The position numbers were made by a program, and so were the translations under genes. A stretch of DNA of 64,000 bases from Escherichia coli (GTDB lineage Bacteria; Pseudomonadota; Gammaproteobacteria; Enterobacterales; Enterobacteriaceae), in NCBI RefSeq assembly GCF_003018255.1, contig NZ_CP027440.1. The stretch is one strand, 5' to 3'. This document shows, piece by piece, positions 506 through 35,131 of the stretch; positions within the stretch are counted from its first letter, which is position 1, and every line of letters begins with the position of its first letter. A model generated the notes under the pieces. That model made no database searches, had not been told where the DNA came from, and saw nothing but the letters and a program-made list of their open reading frames with translations.

Positions 506-1321
506 TTATTGGTTAAATGGCGCTTCGTGTTTAAGCACTTTATCGATCACATCCAGTACGCCTTCACGGTTATTGGAGCCTGCCCGGTATTTTGCCGCTG
601 CGACGACCGCGCTGCCGGCATTTTCCATTGCAAAACTAAAGCCTGCCTGACGCAGCATCTCAATATCGTTACCGCCATCGCCAAAGACCACCACTTCGCT
701 GTCGTCTATTCCCCATAATTTCTGCAGTTGGCGAAGGCCATTGGCTTTATGTACGCCGGGGATAATCAGATCGATGCTGCCGTTGCCGGTGTGGACCGGC
801 ACCATAATATCGCCGATGGCCTCATGTAATGCTTTTTGTACTTGTGGAATCAGTTCATCGGAAAGATTCAGACCAAACTTAAAGAAGATATCTTCTAAGT
901 TGTCAAAGTTATCGACGTATTCCAGACGGTGATAATACATTTCCGCCACCGTTTTCATGGCATCGTCATATTTTTTGAGTGTATAGGCGCTATTTTTTCC
1001 GCAGGCAATAATTTCCACTTCCGGGCGCGTCAGCAAATGTTCCACGACAGTAGAAAACGCATCCTTCGACAGCTCGCCATTAAAAACATCTTTGCCTTCG
1101 CTCACTACCCAGCCGCCGTTTTCAGCCACAAAGGCTATTTCATTAGCAATTTCCGGAAAGAAAGAGATCAACTGATAATATTGATTCCCGCTGGCGACCA
1201 CAAAGCGAATGCCTTGTGCTTTCATTTGCTGATACTGAGCCATAAACCGCTCACGGTTATAGGTTTTTTGATCGCTTAAGAAAGTACCATCCATGTCTAC
1301 CGCAATTAATTTAATGCTCAT
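506..1321 (-). CDS. ybjI: HAD-superfamily sugar/FMN phosphatase YbjI (271 aa)
   Basis: ORF 506..1324; N-terminal DxD motif (IAVDMDGTFL) typical of HAD phosphatases; start taken at ATG 1321..1319 (the track's first codon is TTG). Confidence 0.9.
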   Translation of the reverse strand: MSIKLIAVDMDGTFLSDQKTYNRERFMAQYQQMKAQGIRFVVASGNQYYQLISFFPEIANEIAFVAENGGWVVSEGKDVFNGELSKDAFSTVVEHLLTRPEVEIIACGKNSAYTLKKYDDAMKTVAEMYYHRLEYVDNFDNLEDIFFKFGLNLSDELIPQVQKALHEAIGDIMVPVHTGNGSIDLIIPGVHKANGLRQLQKLWGIDDSEVVVFGDGGNDIEMLRQAGFSFAMENAGSAVVAAAKYRAGSNNREGVLDVIDKVLKHEAPFNQ

Positions 1322-2529
1322 CAACTATTCTCCATCGCCGTCTGCGTTTTGGTATCGGGTTTGGCGACGGCTTTCGCGACAATAGCCGCGAGAATAACCA
1401 GCGCCAGTACAACCAGCATTGCACTACGTAATCCATAATGTTCGCCGAGATAGCCCAGCAGTGGCGGCCCGACGAGGAAAGCCAGATAACCGGTCGTAGC
1501 TACCACGCTGACGCGGGTTGGTGCATCGGGGCCGGTATCGCTGGCGGCAGAAATGGTCAGCGGGAAGCCCAACGAGGCACCCAGTCCCCAAAGTACAACA
1601 GACACCCCAGCAACCCAGGCGCTATCGACAAAAATAATCAGCCCAATACCCAACGCCCCCATTAGTGCACTGGCCCGAACCACGGCAACGCGACTGTAAC
1701 GGTCAATGAACCAACCGCCGGTAAAGCGTCCAACGGTCATCCCCAGGGTAAAACCGGCATAAATCAGCGAGCCGGAAGTAGGGCTAAAACCGTGACCGTC
1801 AACCATTAATAAGGGTAACCAGTCGTTGGCAGAACCTTCGGCAAAGGCCATCGCCAGCACCACAACACCAATCAGCAGCAACTGGATATCGCGATAAAAA
1901 GGTACGCCTTTTTCACCATGCTGGGTGCCATCGGCAGCATTTTTGCCCGTACCATCAGGGATTGCCTGAATGGCGATATAAATAGGCGCGATGCCTACCA
2001 GCGCCGCCAATAAAATGTGCACCGTTGCCGGAACGCCAAAGGCCGTTAGTGCCATCCCGACACCAGCGCCTGCCAGCGTGCCCAGGCTATAAAAACCGTG
2101 CATCATCGGCAAAACCGTCTTATTCATTTCTCGCTCAACGGCAGCACCTTCAACGTTTATCGCCACTTCCGCAGAACCAAAACTTGCCCCAAAGACGCCG
2201 AGACCAACCGCGAAGAGCAGGGGCGATGTCAGCCAGAGTGCCAGACTTAGTATCATCATCCCGATCAATGCGCAGGACATCGTGACCAGGATGACATTAC
2301 GCGTCCCAAAGCGTTTCACTAACCACGCCGAGCAGAGAATACCGCTCATTGAACCGATCGACAGACCAAAGAGGACTCCGCCCATTTCAGCGATCGAAAC
2401 AGAAAGAATATCGCGGATAGCAGGCGTACGGGTTGCCCAGGACGCCATTAACAGGCCTGGCAAAAAGAAGAACATAAACAGCGCCCAGGTTCGGCGTTTC
2501 AATGCATTACGTGAAGAATTTACGGTCAT
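1321..2529 (-). CDS. ybjJ: MFS-family inner membrane transporter YbjJ (402 aa)
   Basis: ORF 1321..2529, highly hydrophobic multi-span translation; stop overlaps ybjI start by 1 nt. Confidence 0.85.
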
Positions 2530-2612
2530 AGATCACGTCAAAATAAGAAGAGGGAAGACAACATTAGCAAGGTTGTGTACATTTGTACACAATTGCAGAG
2601 AGAGGAAATGAC

Positions 2613-3149
2613 ATGCGTCGCGCTAACGATCCGCAACGGCGAGAAAAAATTATCCAGGCCACGCTGGAGGCGGTGAAACTTTATGGAATACATGCTGTTA
2701 CGCACCGCAAAATTGCTACCCTTGCCGGGGTACCGTTGGGGTCGATGACCTACTATTTTTCAGGAATTGATGAGTTGTTGCTGGAGGCGTTCAGCAGTTT
2801 TACTGAGATCATGTCCCGGCAATATCAGGCATTTTTTAGCGATGTTAGTGATGCTCCGGGCGCATGCCAGGCTATCACCGATATGATTTACAGCTCACAG
2901 GTTGCAACGCCGGATAACATGGAGCTGATGTACCAGCTCTACGCGCTGGCTAGCCGAAAACCGCTATTAAAAACGGTAATGCAAAACTGGATGCAGCGCA
3001 GTCAGCAAACGCTCGAACAATGGTTTGAACCCGGAACCGCCCGCGCGCTTGATGCGTTTATTGAGGGGATGACGCTGCATTTTGTCACCGACCGTAAGCC
3101 GCTATCGCGCGAGGAGATTTTGAGGATGGTTGAGAGGGTTGCAGGGTAG
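2613..3149 (+). CDS. rcdA: TetR-family transcriptional regulator RcdA (YbjK), 178 aa
   Basis: ORF 2583..3149; start trimmed to ATG 2613 preceded by AGAGAGGAAATGAC Shine-Dalgarno; N-terminal HTH region. Confidence 0.85.
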
Positions 3150-3168
3150 TAGATAAATTTTAGACAAC

Positions 3169-3247
3169 AAAAAACCCACCAACCTTGAACCGAAATGGCG
3201 GGGTTGATGGGCTCCACAAAATGGGGACATCAAAGAAAAGCAGTGGC
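3169..3247 (-). ncRNA. rybB: RybB small regulatory RNA (sigma-E dependent, Hfq-binding)
   Basis: Minus-strand sequence GCCACTGCTTTTCTTTGATGTCCCCATTTTGTGGAGCCCATCAACCCCGCCATTTCGGTTCAAGGTTGGTGGGTTTTTT matches the RybB sequence as I remember it, including 3' terminator hairpin and U-run; lies in the rcdA-ybjL spacer as in K-12. Confidence 0.85.
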
Positions 3248-3249
3248 AC

Positions 3250-3290
3250 TAATTAAGACTGATGCCCTGCGGAAAAGTTCTGCGGTTGTG
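3250..3290 (-). promoter_or_regulatory. Putative sigma-E promoter of rybB (-35 GAACTT, -10 TCTTA-like)
   Basis: Minus strand immediately upstream of rybB 5' end reads cagAACTTttccgcagggcatcaGTCTTAattagt, consistent with sigma-E consensus GGAACTT / TCTGA. Confidence 0.55.
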
Positions 3291-3323
3291 CAAAAAAATT
3301 TCATTTTCAGGGCAACTTCAGTT

Positions 3324-5009
3324 TTATCCTAATCCTGGCCATACCATGACGATGATTGTCCCTGCCAGCGTCAGCAGGACGTTGGCGATTGCGTAAGTGC
3401 CCGCATAGCCCAGTGCCGGGATATTACTGCGAGCTGTATCACTGATGATCTCCATTGCCGGCGCGCAGGTGCGTGCGCCCATCATTGCGCCGAACAACAG
3501 TGCGCGGTTCATTCGCAATACATAAGCACCGAACAAGAAGCAGATAACCACTGGCACCAGACTGACAATCAATCCGGCAATCAACATCTGACCGCCAATC
3601 GCGCCCAGGCCGTTATTAATACCGCTACCAGCGCTCAGACCAACGCCTGCCATAAACACCATCAAGCCGAACTCCTTCACCATGCTTAATGCACCCTGCG
3701 GAATGTAACCGAAGGTCGGGTGGTTAGCACGCATAAAGCCCAGCATAATTCCGGCGAATAACAACCCGGCAGCGTTCCCCATACCGAAACTGAATGTGCT
3801 GAACTGGAAGGTGATCATCCCGATCATCAGCCCAATAACAAAGAAGGCGCAGAATGCCAGCAAGTCAGTGACCTGGCTGTGAATCGAGATAAAGCCGATG
3901 CGATCGGCGATGGTTTTTACCCGGCGGGCATCGCCGCTGACTTGTAAAACGTCACCTTTGTTAAGCACGACGTTGTCATCAATCGGCATCTCAATCTGGC
4001 TACGTATGACGCGGTTAAGGAAGCAACCGTGATCGGTCAACTTCAGTTGTGCCAGGCGTTTGCCAACAGCGTTATGGTTTTTAACGACCACTTCTTCAGT
4101 GACGATACGCATGTCGAGAAGGTCACGATCGAAAACTTCTTTGCCATTACGGAAACTGGGATCGAGTCGGGCGTGGGCGTCAGGATAGCCTACCAACGCT
4201 ATTTCATCGCCCATTTGTAGTACGGCATCACCGTCTGGATTTGCCAGAATCCCGTTACGCCGAATACGTTCAATGTAACAGCCAGTTTGTCGATAAATAC
4301 CCAGTTCACGCAGATTTTTGCCGTCGGTCCAGGCTACCAGCTCCGGGCCGACGCGGTAGGCGCGGATCACCGGCAAATAAACCTTACGGTTGGCATCTGT
4401 GTCCAGGCCACGTTCGCGGGCGATTTGCTGGGCGCTGGTCTGTAAGTCCTGATGCTGCAATTTCGGCAAGTAACGCGCACCAACAATCAAACTCACCAGG
4501 CCGATTAAATAGGTTAAGGCATACCCGAGGCTCAGATTATCCAGTGCCAATGAGAGCTGCCTGCTTTCCATGCCGGAATGACGCAGTGTATCGCCAGCAC
4601 CGACCAGAACCGGTGTTGACGTCATAGAGCCTGCTAACATACCGGCCGTCAGGCCAATATCCCAGCCAAACAGCTTACCTAACCCTAAGGCGATGACCAG
4701 CGCACTGCCAACCATCACCAGTGCTAACATTAGGTAATTTTTCCCATCGCGAAAAAAAATGGAAAAAAAGTTCGGTCCGGCTTCGACCCCGACGCAGAAA
4801 ATAAACAGCATAAAGCCAAGATTAAGCGCGTCGGTGTTAATGCTGAAATGTTGTTGGCCTAATAACAGCGATACGACTAAAACGCCAATGGAATTACCCA
4901 GTTGGATCGAACCAAGTCGTAATTTCCCGAGACATAGCCCAAGCGCGAGGACCACAAATAATAACAGAATGTAATTCCCATTTAACAATTCGGCGACGTT
5001 TATATTCAC
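3324..5009 (-). CDS. ybjL: Putative AAE-family transporter YbjL with two central TrkA-C/RCK_C-like domains (561 aa)
   Basis: ORF 3324..5009 (561 aa); hydrophobic N- and C-terminal halves flanking a soluble central region. Confidence 0.85.
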
Positions 5010-30132: not shown

Positions 30133-30828
30133 TTAATCGCGTTTTTCCAGTAGAGTCCGGTAAATCAGACCACCGATAATACCGCCGACAATTGGCACCA
30201 CCCAGAAGAACCACAGTTGTTCTAATGCCCAGCCGCCCTGGAAGATAGCAACCGCAGTACTGCGCGCCGGGTTAACGGAAGTGTTAGTCACCGGAATACT
30301 GATTAAGTGAATCAGGGTTAAGGCCAGACCAATGGCAATTGGCGCAAAACCAGCAGGAGCGAATTTGTCAGTTGCGCCGTGGATCACCAACAGGAAACCT
30401 GCACTCAATACCAGTTCAACTACCAGCGCGGAAAGCATGGAATAACCGCCTGGTGAATGCTCGCCATAACCGTTAGAAGCAAAACCGCTGGCTGCCGCGT
30501 CAAAACCCGTTTTACCACTGGCAATTAAATACAGCAGCGCCGCCGCAACAATACCGCCGACAACCTGGGCAATTACGTAGCCAACGACTTCTTTTGCCGG
30601 GAAACGTCCGCCAGCCCATAAACCAATAGTGACCGCCGGGTTAAAATGACCACCAGAAATATGACCAACAGCAAAGGCCATTGTCAGAACGGTCAGACCG
30701 AACGCCAACGCCACGCCGGCAAAACCAATGCCTAATTCCGGGAAGCCTGCGGCCAGTACGGCACTACCACAGCCGCCAAAAACAAGCCAGAAAGTACCAA
30801 AACATTCAGCTGCTAATTTTCTGAACAT
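30133..30828 (-). CDS. aqpZ: Aquaporin Z (231 aa)
   Basis: ORF 30133..30834 trimmed to [11 protein letters not shown]; two NPA motifs ([14 protein letters not shown]). Confidence 0.9.
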
Positions 30829-31253
30829 ATCCACCTCAATTAAAAATTGACCCTGTGAAAAATATGGTCGTTTTATAGGGTCGTCGTAAAAAAGTGACGA
30901 CGGAAATAATGCGCGGCTATTTTAAAAACGAAGGCAAGTCATTCACCAGATAAATAAATCCAGTAAATTTGATTTAAGGCAACAGCGGGTTGCCCCATAT
31001 AGTCATTTGTCTGATTGACAGTGTAGTGCAAGCGAAAGATTTAATCCTTTAGGCGTAATAAAAAATAATTTATCATGCTAATTATTTGATTTTGTTGTTT
31101 TTGCAGACTTATCAGCAAGAGGGAGTATAACGCGATTATTCGCTCATTTTTCAGACATTTGCCATGCTTAAATGTGATGTCATCACGTATTAGCATGGCC
31201 TTTCCCGTTATACTGCCAGCGTAAAGGATAAGTCACATATTTCTGGAGGGGAT

Positions 31254-32912
31254 ATGATTCTTGAGCGCGTTGAAATTGTGGGTTTTCGCGGTATCAACCG
31301 TTTGTCGTTGATGCTGGAACAAAACAACGTCCTGATTGGGGAGAACGCGTGGGGTAAATCCAGCTTGCTGGACGCCTTAACCCTGCTGCTATCGCCAGAA
31401 TCAGATCTCTACCATTTTGAGCGCGACGATTTCTGGTTCCCGCCGGGAGATATCAACGGGCGAGAACATCATCTGCATATTATTTTGACCTTCCGCGAAT
31501 CGCTGCCAGGCCGACATCGGGTTCGCCGCTATCGGCCGCTGGAAGCGTGCTGGACGCCATGCACCGATGGTTATCACCGTATTTTTTATCGTCTGGAAGG
31601 GGAGAGTGCGGAAGACGGCAGCGTGATGACACTGCGCAGTTTTCTCGATAAAGACGGACATCCGATTGATGTTGAGGATATTAACGATCAGGCTCGTCAT
31701 CTGGTGCGTTTAATGCCGGTGCTGCGCTTGCGTGATGCCCGTTTTATGCGCCGTATTCGTAACGGCACGGTGCCAAATGTCCCCAATGTGGAAGTCACCG
31801 CGCGCCAGCTCGATTTCCTCGCCCGTGAATTATCCTCACATCCGCAAAATCTCTCTGATGGGCAGATTCGTCAGGGACTTTCCGCAATGGTGCAACTTCT
31901 TGAGCATTATTTTTCTGAGCAGGGAGCTGGACAGGCGCGATATCGTTTAATGCGGCGGCGAGCCAGCAATGAGCAACGAAGCTGGCGCTATCTGGATATC
32001 ATCAACCGGATGATTGACCGACCTGGAGGGCGCTCGTATCGGGTTATTTTGCTCGGCCTGTTTGCTACTTTATTGCAGGCAAAAGGCACATTGCGACTGG
32101 ATAAAGACGCCCGTCCATTGTTGCTGATCGAAGATCCAGAAACCCGTTTACACCCCATTATGCTTTCAGTTGCCTGGCATCTGTTGAATCTTCTGCCCTT
32201 GCAGCGCATTGCCACCACCAACTCGGGTGAGTTACTTTCGTTAACGCCGGTAGAGCATGTTTGCCGACTGGTACGTGAGTCCTCGCGCGTTGCCGCCTGG
32301 CGTCTGGGGCCGAGTGGCTTGAGTACCGAAGATAGCCGACGCATATCCTTTCACATTCGTTTTAACCGTCCGTCATCGCTGTTTGCTCGCTGCTGGCTGC
32401 TGGTGGAAGGGGAAACGGAAACCTGGGTTATCAATGAACTGGCGCGTCAGTGCGGACATCATTTTGATGCCGAAGGAATCAAGGTCATTGAGTTTGCCCA
32501 GTCCGGGCTAAAGCCACTGGTTAAATTTGCCCGCCGAATGGGGATTGAATGGCATGTACTGGTCGATGGCGATGAAGCAGGGAAGAAATATGCCGCTACG
32601 GTACGCAGCCTGTTGAATAACGATCGGGAAGCCGAACGAGAACATTTAACGGCGTTACCGGCGCTGGATATGGAACATTTTATGTATCGCCAGGGATTTT
32701 CCGATGTGTTCCACCGCGTGGCGCAAATCCCGGAAAATATACCGATGAATCTGCGCAAAGTTATCTCGAAAGCGATCCATCGCTCTTCCAAACCCGATCT
32801 TGCCATTGAAGTGGCAATGGAGGCCGGACGTCGTGGTGTGGACTCCGTACCGACGCTGCTGAAAAAAATGTTCTCACGCGTGCTGTGGCTGGCGCGCGGT
32901 CGCGCGGATTAA
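31254..32912 (+). CDS. ybjD: OLD-family ATP-dependent endonuclease-like protein YbjD (N-terminal ABC-type ATPase, C-terminal TOPRIM), 552 aa
   Basis: ORF 31254..32912; Walker A GENAWGKSS at residues ~29-37; C-terminal acidic TOPRIM-like motifs LLVEGETE and VLVDGDEAGK. Confidence 0.85.
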   Translation: MILERVEIVGFRGINRLSLMLEQNNVLIGENAWGKSSLLDALTLLLSPESDLYHFERDDFWFPPGDINGREHHLHIILTFRESLPGRHRVRRYRPLEACWTPCTDGYHRIFYRLEGESAEDGSVMTLRSFLDKDGHPIDVEDINDQARHLVRLMPVLRLRDARFMRRIRNGTVPNVPNVEVTARQLDFLARELSSHPQNLSDGQIRQGLSAMVQLLEHYFSEQGAGQARYRLMRRRASNEQRSWRYLDIINRMIDRPGGRSYRVILLGLFATLLQAKGTLRLDKDARPLLLIEDPETRLHPIMLSVAWHLLNLLPLQRIATTNSGELLSLTPVEHVCRLVRESSRVAAWRLGPSGLSTEDSRRISFHIRFNRPSSLFARCWLLVEGETETWVINELARQCGHHFDAEGIKVIEFAQSGLKPLVKFARRMGIEWHVLVDGDEAGKKYAATVRSLLNNDREAEREHLTALPALDMEHFMYRQGFSDVFHRVAQIPENIPMNLRKVISKAIHRSSKPDLAIEVAMEAGRRGVDSVPTLLKKMFSRVLWLARGRAD

Positions 32913-33901
32913 CCGCGAAACATCGTGGCCATTTGTGGCTGAATAGCGTCGAGCATCTCATAGCGCCGACGGTATTCAGCCCGTTTTTTACTGGCGATTT
33001 CGGCAATCTCTTTTCGTGCTATCTGTGCCGGAAGGCGGTAATGGCGTTCAGCATCACATACGCCGCCAACCGACTCCCAGAACGCGTTGTAATCGGCATG
33101 GATCTTGCCTTCTTTATCACGATAACGCAGGCTGCGGTAAATATGCGTTTCATTGCTGACGGCAATAATCTGCTCTACCTGCAAACGTTGGGCAAACAGA
33201 CAGGCCGCTTCCATCACAAGGCGTTTGGGAAATAGCCCGTGGCAGGCTTTCGTCGCATTCTGGATTTCCTGATGTGGAATTTCCCATTTTGCGCCTTGCA
33301 GTCCGCCAATAAACATTGTTCTTTTCCCCTTATATTCACACAGGGTAAACGTGATCTCTGCCAGAGGAATACCTTCGCTGTTGCGGAACAGGATTGTGCT
33401 GTCACCTTCTTTATCCATTGAGATCATCATGGTCAGCTCAAGCGTGAACTGCTCGCCGTTTTTGCCTTCCAGTTTAGCCAGTTGCAGCCCGGGGGTATTC
33501 AAATATAAGCTGAATTCTTCCGCCGACATACACCCGCGGAGTAACGCATAATGGTAACGTAACGCCTCCAGCAATTGCTTACGGCTAAGATTCGCCGCAA
33601 GGTAAGGGCGATGCAGACGCACAGGCAGTCGCGGCTGGCGCGTTAACAACACATTGAGATTGGGCCAGTGGGAAAGTTCGTTCATCCACTCAACGCTTAA
33701 ACGCGGCATAATCAACGAGCGCAGCAAAAATTTCTGGCGAAAACTACGGCGATGCCAGAATTTACCCGGCCGACACTGTCCACGTGCCAGGCTAAGAAAA
33801 AGTGACAGGCTGCTGAGAGATTCAGATGGCGTAAAGGTCCGTTCAGTTAGCTGCGACATATTCATGAAATCAATGGTTATACATGTCGTCGATTTCACCA
33901 T
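32909..33901 (-). CDS. ybjX: YbjX (DUF535, VirK-like), 330 aa
   Basis: ORF 32909..33901; 4-nt convergent overlap with ybjD stop. Confidence 0.8.
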   Translation of the reverse strand: MVKSTTCITIDFMNMSQLTERTFTPSESLSSLSLFLSLARGQCRPGKFWHRRSFRQKFLLRSLIMPRLSVEWMNELSHWPNLNVLLTRQPRLPVRLHRPYLAANLSRKQLLEALRYHYALLRGCMSAEEFSLYLNTPGLQLAKLEGKNGEQFTLELTMMISMDKEGDSTILFRNSEGIPLAEITFTLCEYKGKRTMFIGGLQGAKWEIPHQEIQNATKACHGLFPKRLVMEAACLFAQRLQVEQIIAVSNETHIYRSLRYRDKEGKIHADYNAFWESVGGVCDAERHYRLPAQIARKEIAEIASKKRAEYRRRYEMLDAIQPQMATMFRG

Positions 33902-34015
33902 TGCGTATCTTAACCAAACATCAATAGTGTGATTACTAATGTAAATTTTAGGGTTTTGTTGATATTTCGTTGAAGTTAATGACCCAGATTGGCATATGGA
34001 GTATTCAGAATATTT

Positions 34016-35131
34016 ATGAAAAAGCGGAAAACCGTGAAGAAGCGTTACGTTATTGCGCTGGTGATAATCATCGTCGGGCTGATTACGTTATGGAGAATTC
34101 TTAACGCACCCGTGCCGACTTATCAGACGCTGATTGTGCGCCCCGGTGATTTACAGCAAAGCGTGCTGGCGACCGGAAAGCTGGACGCGCTGCGTAAGGT
34201 TGATGTGGGCGCGCAGGTCAGCGGTCAGTTGAAAACGCTGTCGGTGGCGATTGGCGATAAAGTAAAAAAAGACCAGCTTTTAGGGGTTATTGATCCTGAA
34301 CAGGCTGAAAACCAGATTAAGGAGGTGGAAGCAACGCTGATGGAGCTACGCGCGCAGCGGCAGCAGGCGGAAGCGGAGCTGAAACTGGCGCGGGTGACGT
34401 ATTCCCGTCAGCAACGTCTTGCACAAACGCAAGCGGTTTCACAGCAGGATCTCGATAACGCCGCGACGGAGATGGCTGTGAAACAGGCGCAAATTGGCAC
34501 CATTGACGCGCAAATCAAGCGCAATCAGGCCTCTCTCGATACGGCTAAAACCAATCTCGATTACACCCGCATCGTTGCCCCGATGGCCGGGGAAGTCACG
34601 CAAATCACCACTCTGCAAGGCCAGACGGTGATTGCCGCACAACAAGCACCGAACATTCTGACGCTGGCAGATATGAGCACCATGCTGGTAAAAGCGCAGG
34701 TTTCTGAAGCGGATGTAATCCACCTGAAGCCGGGGCAAAAAGCCTGGTTTACGGTGCTTGGCGATCCGCTGACGCGCTATGAGGGGCAAATCAAGGATGT
34801 GCTACCGACGCCGGAAAAGGTTAACGACGCTATTTTCTATTACGCCCGTTTTGAAGTCCCCAACCCCAATGGTTTGCTGCGGCTGGATATGACCGCGCAA
34901 GTGCATATTCAGCTCACCGATGTGAAAAATGTGCTGACGATCCCTCTGTCGGCATTAGGCGATCCGGTTGGCGATAATCGTTATAAAGTCAAATTGTTGC
35001 GTAATGGTGAAACACGCGAGCGTGAAGTGACGATTGGCGCACGTAACGATACCGATGTTGAGATTGTCAAAGGGCTGGAAGCGGGCGATGAAGTGGTGAT
35101 TGGTGAGGCCAAACCAGGAGCTGTACAATGA
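34016..35131 (+). CDS. macA: Macrolide efflux periplasmic adaptor (membrane fusion protein) MacA, 371 aa
   Basis: ORF 33989..35131 trimmed to [10 protein letters not shown]; N-terminal TM anchor, coiled-coil region. Confidence 0.85.

What the first reader, a model, noticed from the sequence alone, without database searches (positions are those of the whole stretch)
32909..32912. Convergent 4-nt overlap of ybjD and ybjX stop codons
ybjD (+) ends at 32912 and ybjX (-) ends at 32909, so the two convergent genes share their last 4 nt with no intergenic terminator. Transcripts from either gene must run into the other's coding region, giving scope for antisense interference between an OLD-family nuclease gene and a DUF535/VirK-like gene.
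Basis: seen in the sequence. Interest (0 to 1): 0.2.

Follow-up and report, generated by a model that had tools for sequence, protein, structure and literature searches.

The report
Overlapping stop codons of ybjD and ybjX
Two E. coli genes that face each other really do share four bases (TTAA) at their ends, but this is a common by-product of the genetic code, and published RNA maps already show that the two genes' transcripts overlap, so the finding is ordinary.

Summary
ybjD (+, 31254-32912) and ybjX (-, 32909-33901) share TTAA.

The window is E. coli core chromosome. The same junction is annotated in K-12, and the junction region is present in 5424 of 5426 complete genomes.

The overlap follows from the genetic code. 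ybjD ends Asp(GAY)+TAR in all 80 Enterobacteriaceae species sampled, and the complement of YTA is itself a stop. The ybjX frame therefore cannot read past this point. 64 of the 65 species with a DUF535 gene there keep the -4 overlap, although the length of the protein tail varies.

Terminators lie inside the partner gene:
- **ybjD:** a strong hairpin plus U6 (32938-32991), inside ybjX's last 27 codons, is the candidate terminator. It is more stable than synonymous-codon shuffles allow. It shows no covariation and no mapped 3' end.
- **ybjX:** published mapping in K-12 puts its 3' end 147 nt inside ybjD (window 32763), and a Rho-dependent termination region about 880 nt inside.

ybjD-ybjX is already listed as a convergent "excludon". 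Reciprocal regulation is unproven and the available data do not favour it. Verdict: real, ordinary and already known; interest is low.

The parts
31254..32912 (+). ybjD (proposed name oldB) coding sequence, 552 aa. It is a Class 1 OLD-family ATPase/Toprim protein ending ...Arg-Ala-Asp-TAA.
   Evidence: ORF. Pfam DUF2813 (E 2e-160), OLD-like Toprim and AAA_15. RefSeq annotation. PMC13261556.
32909..33901 (-). ybjX coding sequence, 330 aa as in K-12. PGAP calls a 318-aa version that starts at 33865. VirK/YbjX family (DUF535).
   Evidence: ORF. Pfam DUF535 (E 6e-102). Annotations.
32909..32912 (.). TTAA, the 4-nt stop/stop overlap. TAA of ybjD is 32910-32912. TAA of ybjX is the complement of 32909-32911.
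   Evidence: Sequence. Conserved as TTAA (34), TTAG (21), CTAA (5) or CTAG (3) across the 63 sequences counted, which are loci plus the window. 64 of 65 species with a DUF535 gene after ybjD keep the overlap.
32938..32991 (+). Candidate intrinsic terminator of ybjD, embedded in the last 27 codons of ybjX. The stem-loop is GGCUGAAUAGCGUCG...CGACGGUAUUCAGCC (32938-32982), followed by CG and then U6 (32986-32991).
   Evidence: Terminator scan. Folding gives -26.7 kcal/mol, z -4.2, with 0 of 200 shuffles as stable. Synonymous-codon shuffles give z -2.9 to -3.6, and only for the last three windows of ybjX. Kept in 8 Escherichia lineages. The function is inferred: no ybjD 3' end was found in the data searched.
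32929..32929 (-). Published 'internal' 3' end of ybjX RNA (K-12 918148). It lies 9 nt past the same hairpin on the minus-strand RNA and 18 nt before the ybjX stop codon. It is probably a hairpin-protected decay end.
   Evidence: TRS Supplementary Data 2, PMC10687069. Coordinates were transferred through the window/K-12 alignment, which is identical across this stretch.
32763..32784 (-). Published main 3' end of ybjX mRNA (K-12 917982 = window 32763). It lies after a weak hairpin, AGCGAUGGAUCGCU (32771-32784). The 3' UTR is 147 nt and lies entirely antisense to ybjD.
   Evidence: TRS LB RNAtag-seq, adjusted p 1e-44 to 1e-53, hairpin -10.6 kcal/mol. [quoted passage not shown] My scan of K-12 is.
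32027..32027 (-). Published Rho-dependent termination region, antisense to ybjD (K-12 917246), about 880 nt past the ybjX stop.
   Evidence: Adams et al. 2021, Supplementary file 2. Reads upstream/downstream were 299/18 untreated and 568/545 with bicyclomycin. Rho score 15.9, p 7e-53.
32400..32700 (-). A stretch where the minus-strand RNA has more C than G (plus-strand GC skew +0.16 to +0.26). It is a plausible Rho loading region on the untranslated ybjX 3' extension.
   Evidence: Composition profile. The link to Rho loading is inferred.

Best explanation
The TTAA overlap is a passive consequence of the genetic code that has been inherited unchanged. It is not a device in its own right.

**Why the overlap exists.** ybjD ends with Asp (GAT or GAC) followed by TAA or TAG. 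The complement of the resulting YTA is TAA or TAG. The minus strand therefore always carries an in-frame stop one base to the left of ybjD's stop. The ybjX reading frame runs up to this point and cannot pass it.

**Where transcription ends.** With no spacer between the genes, each gene's 3'-end signals lie inside the other gene.
- Inferred: ybjD transcripts end about 80 nt into ybjX. There a strong stem-loop plus U6 (32938-32991) can form once the ribosome has left at the ybjD stop.
- Shown by published mapping in K-12: ybjX transcripts become untranslated at the shared TTAA. They end 147 nt into ybjD behind a weak hairpin, or continue to a Rho-dependent region about 880 nt in.

**Consequence.** The two mRNAs can be complementary over roughly 230 nt (32763-32991), and over more when Rho termination is late. 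ybjX RNA is about 10-fold more abundant per kb than ybjD RNA. Any antisense effect would therefore run mainly from ybjX onto ybjD, but no such effect has been shown.
For: **Locus**
- Geometry and gene identities.
- Core E. coli locus: 5424 of 5426 genomes hold it, and the 141-nt junction is at least 99% identical in 4361.

**Forced stop**
- The G, A, T and A of GAY-TAR are invariant in the 61-sequence alignment, and the ybjD end reads GAY+stop in all 80 species.
- All four permitted tetramers occur.
- The DUF535 tail differs by -4 to +2 aa between lineages, yet 64 of 65 species end at this stop.
- The class is described in the literature.

**Candidate ybjD terminator**
- Detection and folding.
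- Across ybjX, z against synonymous shuffles averages 0.0 (sd 1.04), but it is -2.9 to -3.6 in the last three windows.
- Across 63 sequences (species loci plus the window) mean z is -1.53, and 46% have p<0.05.
- Eleven DUF535 genes that are not next to ybjD give z from -1.75 to +2.08. In all five Kluyvera-type genomes the copy next to ybjD is more structured than the distal copy.

**ybjX 3' ends**
- Mapped ends and the Rho region.
- C-rich stretch on the 3' extension.

**Overlapping transcription**
- Excludon listing.
- Sense/antisense reads.
Against: - No experimental 3' end for ybjD was found in the supplements I could search. These were Adams Term-seq, TRS and SMRT-Cappable-seq.
- The E. 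coli hairpin is not conserved in register across the family. 66.4% of cells are paired against 66.8% in shuffles, there is no covariation, and RNAalifold finds no consensus hairpin.
- The U6 tract is simply Lys-Lys as AAA AAA. It occurs in 32 of 61 sequences against 31.3 expected from codon usage.
- The hairpin forms equally well on the ybjX RNA (sense z -2.3 to -3.2). A minus-strand 3' end lies 9 nt after it, so it may serve ybjX instead.
- The species are phylogenetically related, so the per-species p-values are not independent.
Confidence: 0.8

Rival explanations
1. The pair is a working excludon. When ybjX is strongly transcribed (it is reported as PhoP-activated), its long 3' extension lowers ybjD expression. 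It would do so by head-on polymerase collision or by RNase III cleavage of the duplex, so the two genes would be expressed in opposition.
For: - ybjD-ybjX is listed among the convergent excludons found in at least 50% of 58 MG1655 RNA-seq samples.
- ybjX 3' ends lie 147 nt and about 880 nt inside ybjD.
- Antisense reads over ybjD are 43-60% of sense reads, against 1-13% for ybjX.
- YbjD is toxic when over-expressed, so tight control of it is plausible.
Against: - No reciprocal expression has been shown for this pair.
- p19-captured dsRNA over ybjD is only 30-79 RPM, below the 100 RPM reached by the top 13.5% of genes.
- No dsRNA cluster is listed at the junction.
- ybjD sense reads fall rather than rise in the rnc-14 and rnc-38 mutants: 80.8, then 58.2 and 37.6 RPM, from single samples.
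- ybjD is kept in 17 species that have no DUF535 gene there.
Confidence: 0.15
2. The conserved stem-loop at 32938-32982 acts on the ybjX mRNA, not on ybjD. It would serve as a 3'-proximal stability or pause element.
For: - The structure is about as strong an outlier on the ybjX sense strand (z -2.3 to -3.2).
- A mapped minus-strand 3' end lies 9 nt after it (K-12 918148).
- The U-tract on the plus strand is no more frequent than codon usage predicts.
Against: - An RNA ending there lacks the ybjX stop codon, so it would be a non-stop transcript and looks like a decay intermediate.
- The main ybjX 3' end is 166 nt further on.
- DUF535 genes that are not next to ybjD lack the excess structure.
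- Only the plus strand has a U run after the stem.
Confidence: 0.25
3. The 4-nt overlap is itself under selection, for example for genome compaction or to couple the ends of the two genes.
For: The -4 overlap is kept in 64 of 65 species even though YbjX is only 44-74% identical outside Escherichia and its tail length varies.
Against: - The minus-strand stop is forced by ybjD's conserved Asp+TAR end. Any in-frame ybjX tail must therefore end there without further selection.
- Buttiauxella has a 12-nt gap.
- Both genes occur without the other.
Confidence: 0.05

Closest known systems
Four-nucleotide convergent (tail-to-tail) gene overlaps: CTAA, TTAA, CTAG, TTAG (Lillo and Krakauer 2007, PMC2174442)
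   Same: The geometry is exactly the same: two opposed stop codons share a tetramer. That paper counts 58 convergent overlaps in E. coli. It notes that their rho-independent terminators must lie inside the partner's coding sequence, and finds predicted ones for 21 of the 58.
   Different: Nothing differs in kind. Added here for this pair: the minus-strand stop is forced by a conserved Asp+TAR end, and the junction is conserved in 64 of 65 sampled species.
Convergent excludons (ExcludonFinder map of E. coli MG1655, PMC12288877)
   Same: Adjacent opposite-strand genes with overlapping transcripts. ybjD-ybjX is explicitly listed. 146 of the 165 convergent excludons have predicted terminators embedded in the neighbour's transcription unit.
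   Different: The defining outcome, mutually exclusive expression, has not been shown for this pair. The dsRNA and RNase III data I could read do not point to it.
Overlapping or bidirectional terminators between convergent genes (Ju, Li and Liu 2019, SEnd-seq; cited from reference lists, paper not held)
   Same: Convergent genes whose transcripts end within a shared region.
   Different: Here one hairpin does not serve both directions. The hairpin has a U run on the plus strand only. The ybjX end lies about 230 nt away and is partly Rho-dependent, so the termination sites are staggered.
Rho termination of untranslated 3' extensions and antisense RNA (Adams et al. 2021, PMC7815308)
   Same: The region at K-12 917246(-) is one of 1078 Rho termination regions. 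51.5% of them are antisense to genes.
   Different: Nothing specific to this pair.

Membership tests
4-nt convergent stop/stop overlap | Two genes on opposite strands whose stop codons share one of CTAA, TTAA, CTAG or TTAG | tested here: met
   TTAA at 32909-32912. Both ORFs end there and are annotated so in RefSeq.
4-nt convergent stop/stop overlap | Both overlapping ORFs are real protein-coding genes | tested here: met
   Strong Pfam matches. Orthologues in 80 species. YbjD has a published phenotype.
Excludon | Transcripts of the two neighbouring opposite-strand genes overlap | tested here: met
   Met from published data read here. ybjX 3' ends lie at K-12 917982 and about 917246, inside ybjD. 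The pair is listed in the MG1655 excludome. Antisense reads cover ybjD.
Excludon | Expression of one gene lowers expression of the other (mutually exclusive expression) | not testable with these tools
   No condition-resolved, strand-specific data for this pair were available. It needs the experiment described under next steps.
Excludon | RNase III-dependent processing of the sense/antisense duplex | tested here: inconclusive
   p19-captured dsRNA over ybjD is 30-79 RPM, with no cluster at the junction. ybjD sense reads are not raised in the rnc mutants, from single samples.
Intrinsic (rho-independent) terminator, for ybjD | Stable G+C-containing stem-loop directly followed by a U run on the transcribed strand | tested here: met
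   Stem-loop 32938-32982 at -25.7 to -26.7 kcal/mol, then CG, then U6.
Intrinsic (rho-independent) terminator, for ybjD | An RNA 3' end at the U run in vivo | tested here: inconclusive
   No ybjD 3' end appears in the Adams, TRS or SMRT-Cappable-seq tables. ybjD is weakly expressed, and the SEnd-seq tables were not available.
Intrinsic (rho-independent) terminator, for ybjD | Structure maintained in evolution | tested here: inconclusive
   There is excess stability against synonymous shuffles, and it is absent in control paralogues. But there is no in-register conservation or covariation, and the U run matches codon usage.
Bidirectional terminator | One hairpin flanked by an A run and a U run, so that it terminates both strands | tested here: not met
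   On the minus strand the hairpin is followed by ACAAAUGG, not a U run. The main ybjX 3' end is 166 nt further on.
OLD family, Class 1 (YbjD) | N-terminal ABC-type ATPase plus C-terminal Toprim domain, with no partner gene in an operon | tested here: met
   Pfam AAA_15, AAA_21 and OLD-like Toprim. The neighbours are aqpZ (upstream of ybjD, on the opposite strand) and ybjX (convergent). The classification is in PMC13261556.
VirK/YbjX family (DUF535) | Full-length match to PF04393 | tested here: met
   E 5.6e-102, profile positions 2-280 of 281.

The most novel reading that the evidence does not exclude
Envelope-stress (PhoP-driven) transcription of ybjX reads 150-900 nt into ybjD. In doing so it acts as a conditional antisense brake on a toxic anti-phage OLD nuclease. 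This would link membrane stress to the level of a phage-defence protein across Enterobacteriaceae, and the deeply conserved zero-spacer junction would exist to guarantee that read-in.
Probability: 0.08. Interest if true: 0.45.

Novelty: already known. Interest (0 to 1): 0.1.

Why it matters
It matters little beyond correct bookkeeping.

The junction is a textbook-type stop/stop overlap in a core E. coli locus. Its transcript overlap is already catalogued, and ybjX 3' ends are already mapped.

The modest additions from this work are:
- a simple reason why the overlap is evolutionarily locked: a conserved Asp+TAR end forces the opposite-strand stop;
- a candidate ybjD terminator written into the coding sequence of ybjX, with a synonymous-site signal.

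This could be of practical use. YbjD (OldB) is now being studied as a phage-defence protein. Deletions or tags at either gene's 3' end will disturb the other gene's coding end and its termination signals.

Tried and rejected
1. **Hairpin across the shared stops.** The small hairpin CGCGG-ATTAA-CCGCG is not significant (z -1.06 and -1.48). It is also lost in other Escherichia lineages.
2. **Minus-strand U7 run at 32862-32868 as a ybjX terminator.** There is no stable hairpin before it in this strain (z -0.56). No mapped 3' end lies there.
3. **Rfam.** No match at E <= 1 in 30800-34100.
4. **Covariation support for the E. coli hairpin across 61 sequences.** None was found.
5. **Selection for the U6 tract.** None was found: 32 observed against 31.3 expected.
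6. **A ybjD 3' end in published maps.**
   - Adams Term-seq has none near K-12 91807x-91822x.
   - The SMRT-Cappable-seq supplements do not mention either gene.
   - No supplements are held for Dar and Sorek 2018 or for ExcludonFinder.
   - Ju et al. 2019 is not held.
7. **A p19 dsRNA cluster at the 3' junction.** The only ybjX cluster is at its 5' end and is classed as divergent.
8. **Whole-genome count of -4 convergent pairs in K-12.** Not attempted, because annotation can only be fetched 50 kb at a time. I relied on PMC2174442 instead.

Full report
**1. The observation**

The sequence reads ...GCG GAT TAA on the plus strand, ending at 32912. The complement of 32909-32911 (TTA) is the TAA that closes a 330-codon minus-strand ORF.

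The plus ORF (31254-32912, 552 aa) matches DUF2813, an OLD-like Toprim domain and P-loop ATPase families. The minus ORF (32909-33901) matches DUF535 over the whole profile.

The window is E. coli chromosome.
- The 3.2-kb region is found in 5424 of 5426 complete genomes.
- The 141 nt around the junction are at least 99% identical in 4361 of them.
- RefSeq annotates the same 4-nt overlap in strain 200164 and in K-12 MG1655, where ybjD is 916473-918131 and ybjX is 918128-919120.
- The window and K-12 are identical from 32826 to 33010. K-12 coordinates therefore transfer as window = K-12 - 885219.

**2. Why the overlap is there and why it persists**

I fetched the ybjD locus from 80 species of Enterobacteriaceae and located both gene ends.
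- Taking the nearest homologue, 65 species have a DUF535 gene convergent with ybjD.
- In 64 of these the overlap is exactly 4 nt. Across the 63 sequences counted (loci plus the window) the tetramers are TTAA 34, TTAG 21, CTAA 5 and CTAG 3.
- The exception is a Buttiauxella species with a 12-nt gap.
- Seventeen species, including Klebsiella, Raoultella, Superficieibacter and some Enterobacter, keep ybjD but have no DUF535 gene there.

YbjD is 80-91% identical outside Escherichia. The neighbouring DUF535 protein is only 44-74% identical, and its C-terminal tail differs in length by -4 to +2 residues (alignment A2). Even so, it always stops at the same place.

The reason is mechanical. ybjD ends GAY (Asp) plus TAR in every species, and the G, A, T and A are invariant columns in A2. 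The complement of YTA is TAA or TAG. The minus strand therefore always carries a stop in that frame, and any in-frame tail ends there.

This is the known class of convergent tetramer overlaps. Lillo and Krakauer name exactly these four tetramers, show a jump at length 4, and count 58 convergent overlaps in E. coli. No extra selection on the overlap itself is needed.

**3. Where the transcripts end: ybjD**

There is no spacer, so the signals must lie inside the partner gene.

On the plus strand, 26 nt after the ybjD stop, lies a long stem-loop (32938-32982). It is followed by CG and U6 (32986-32991). The evidence in its favour is as follows.
- On its own it folds at -26.7 kcal/mol, with z -4.2 and none of 200 dinucleotide shuffles as stable.
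- It lies inside ybjX codons, so I shuffled synonymous codons while keeping the YbjX protein. Over the whole gene z averages 0.0 (sd 1.04), but the last three windows give -2.9 to -3.6.
- It is kept, partly through G-U changes, in eight Escherichia lineages.
- Across 63 sequences (species loci plus the window) mean z is -1.53, and 46% have p<0.05.
- Eleven DUF535 genes that are not next to ybjD show no such excess, with z from -1.75 to +2.08. These are six plasmid virK-like genes and the distal copies in five genomes with tandem duplicates.
- In all five of those genomes the copy adjacent to ybjD is the more structured one.

The evidence against it is as follows.
- The E. coli pairing is not conserved in register across the family. 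66.4% of cells are paired against 66.8% in shuffles, there is no covariation, and there is no RNAalifold consensus.
- The U6 run is just Lys-Lys as AAA AAA. It is found in 32 of 61 sequences against 31.3 expected from codon usage.
- No ybjD 3' end is reported in the tables I could search.

I therefore treat this as a probable but unproven ybjD terminator, strongest in Escherichia.

**4. Where the transcripts end: ybjX**

On the minus strand the answer is already published.
- The TRS study reports a 'distant primary' ybjX 3' end at K-12 917982 (window 32763). This gives a 147-nt 3' UTR behind a weak hairpin (-10.6 kcal/mol). [quoted passage not shown]
- The same study lists an 'internal' end at 918148 (window 32929). 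It lies 9 nt past the big hairpin as it forms on the ybjX RNA and 18 nt before the stop codon. It looks like a hairpin-protected decay end.
- Adams et al. list a Rho termination region antisense to ybjD at 917246 (window 32027). Reads upstream/downstream were 299/18 without bicyclomycin and 568/545 with it, giving a Rho score of 15.9.
- The minus-strand RNA is C-rich over 32400-32700, which is compatible with Rho loading.

**5. Is there antisense interference?**

Overlapping transcription is real.
- ExcludonFinder lists ybjD-ybjX among 165 convergent excludons seen in at least half of 58 MG1655 RNA-seq samples.
- In Huang et al., antisense reads over ybjD are 38.5, 35.1 and 16.0 RPM against sense reads of 80.8, 58.2 and 37.6.
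- In the same data ybjX has 519, 380 and 105 RPM sense and 7-13 RPM antisense.
- Per kb, ybjX RNA is about 10 times more abundant than ybjD RNA.

A regulatory effect is not shown.
- p19-captured dsRNA over ybjD is 30-79 RPM, which is not among the top genes.
- The strong ybjX signal (1252-3424 RPM) comes from a cluster at its 5' end. That cluster is classed as divergent overlap with a plus-strand transcript that starts inside ybjX.
- ybjD sense reads do not rise in two RNase III mutants.
- ybjD survives without the neighbour in 17 species.

I put it at about 0.15.

**6. Comparison with what is known, and novelty**

- The geometry belongs fully to the 4-nt convergent overlap class.
- The transcript overlap is already catalogued as an excludon, although the defining reciprocal expression is untested.
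- It is not a bidirectional terminator. The U run is on one strand only, and the termination sites are staggered by about 230 nt.
- YbjD was recently described as a Class 1 OLD protein (proposed name oldB). It gives anti-phage phenotypes when induced and is toxic when over-expressed. Its authors noted the convergent ybjX and judged the two genes independent.

Nothing here is new in kind. The added details are the forced-stop logic, the family-wide conservation, and the synonymous-site signal of the embedded hairpin.

**7. Verdict**

The finding is real, ordinary and already known. Interest is 0.1.

Noticed in passing
window 33865-33901: The ybjX start differs between annotations. K-12 uses the ATG at 33901 (330 aa), while PGAP in strain 200164 starts at 33865 (318 aa).
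   Followed up: no
window 33519-33866 (+ strand, inside the ybjX 5' half): A plus-strand transcript appears to start inside ybjX. Promoter-like hexamers CCGACA-18-CATAAT lie at 33523-33552. Conway's operon start, as cited by Huang et al., is at U00096.2 917961 (about window 33519). The transcript runs toward macAB. It produces a strong p19-captured dsRNA cluster over the ybjX 5' end (U00096.2 918037-918308; 1236-1968 RPM), which also matches Lybecker dsRNA MS-26. This divergent overlap is the stronger antisense candidate at this locus.
   Followed up: partly
L068, L072, L073, L074, L081 (Kluyvera and relatives), 1.1 kb downstream of ybjD: These genomes carry two tandem DUF535 genes. The copy that overlaps ybjD is only about 50% identical to E. 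coli YbjX. The distal copy is 64-68% identical and has the E. coli-like tail, so the ybjD-adjacent gene may be a paralogue rather than the orthologue.
   Followed up: partly
L009-L082 compared with the window: YbjX-like proteins evolve much faster than YbjD at the same locus: 44-74% against 80-91% identity outside Escherichia.
   Followed up: no
L041 (CACSKA010000002.1): This record is titled Chryseobacterium sp. 18061, yet it carries an 86%-identical ybjD and a DUF535 neighbour typical of Enterobacteriaceae. It is probably a mislabelled or contaminated assembly.
   Followed up: no
window 35128-35131: macA and macB overlap by 4 nt in the same direction (macA ends at 35131, macB starts at 35128). 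This is the usual co-directional stop/start overlap.
   Followed up: no
window 33957-33973 (+): A direct repeat, TGTTGA-N5-CGTTGA, lies in the ybjX-macA intergenic region. From memory it resembles a PhoP box, (T/G)GTTTA-N5-(T/G)GTTTA. This was not tested.
   Followed up: no
window 32760 versus K-12 917979: The U run after the mapped ybjX 3' end is AAUUUUG in K-12 but AACUUUG in this strain. The weak intrinsic component of ybjX termination may therefore be weaker still here.
   Followed up: no
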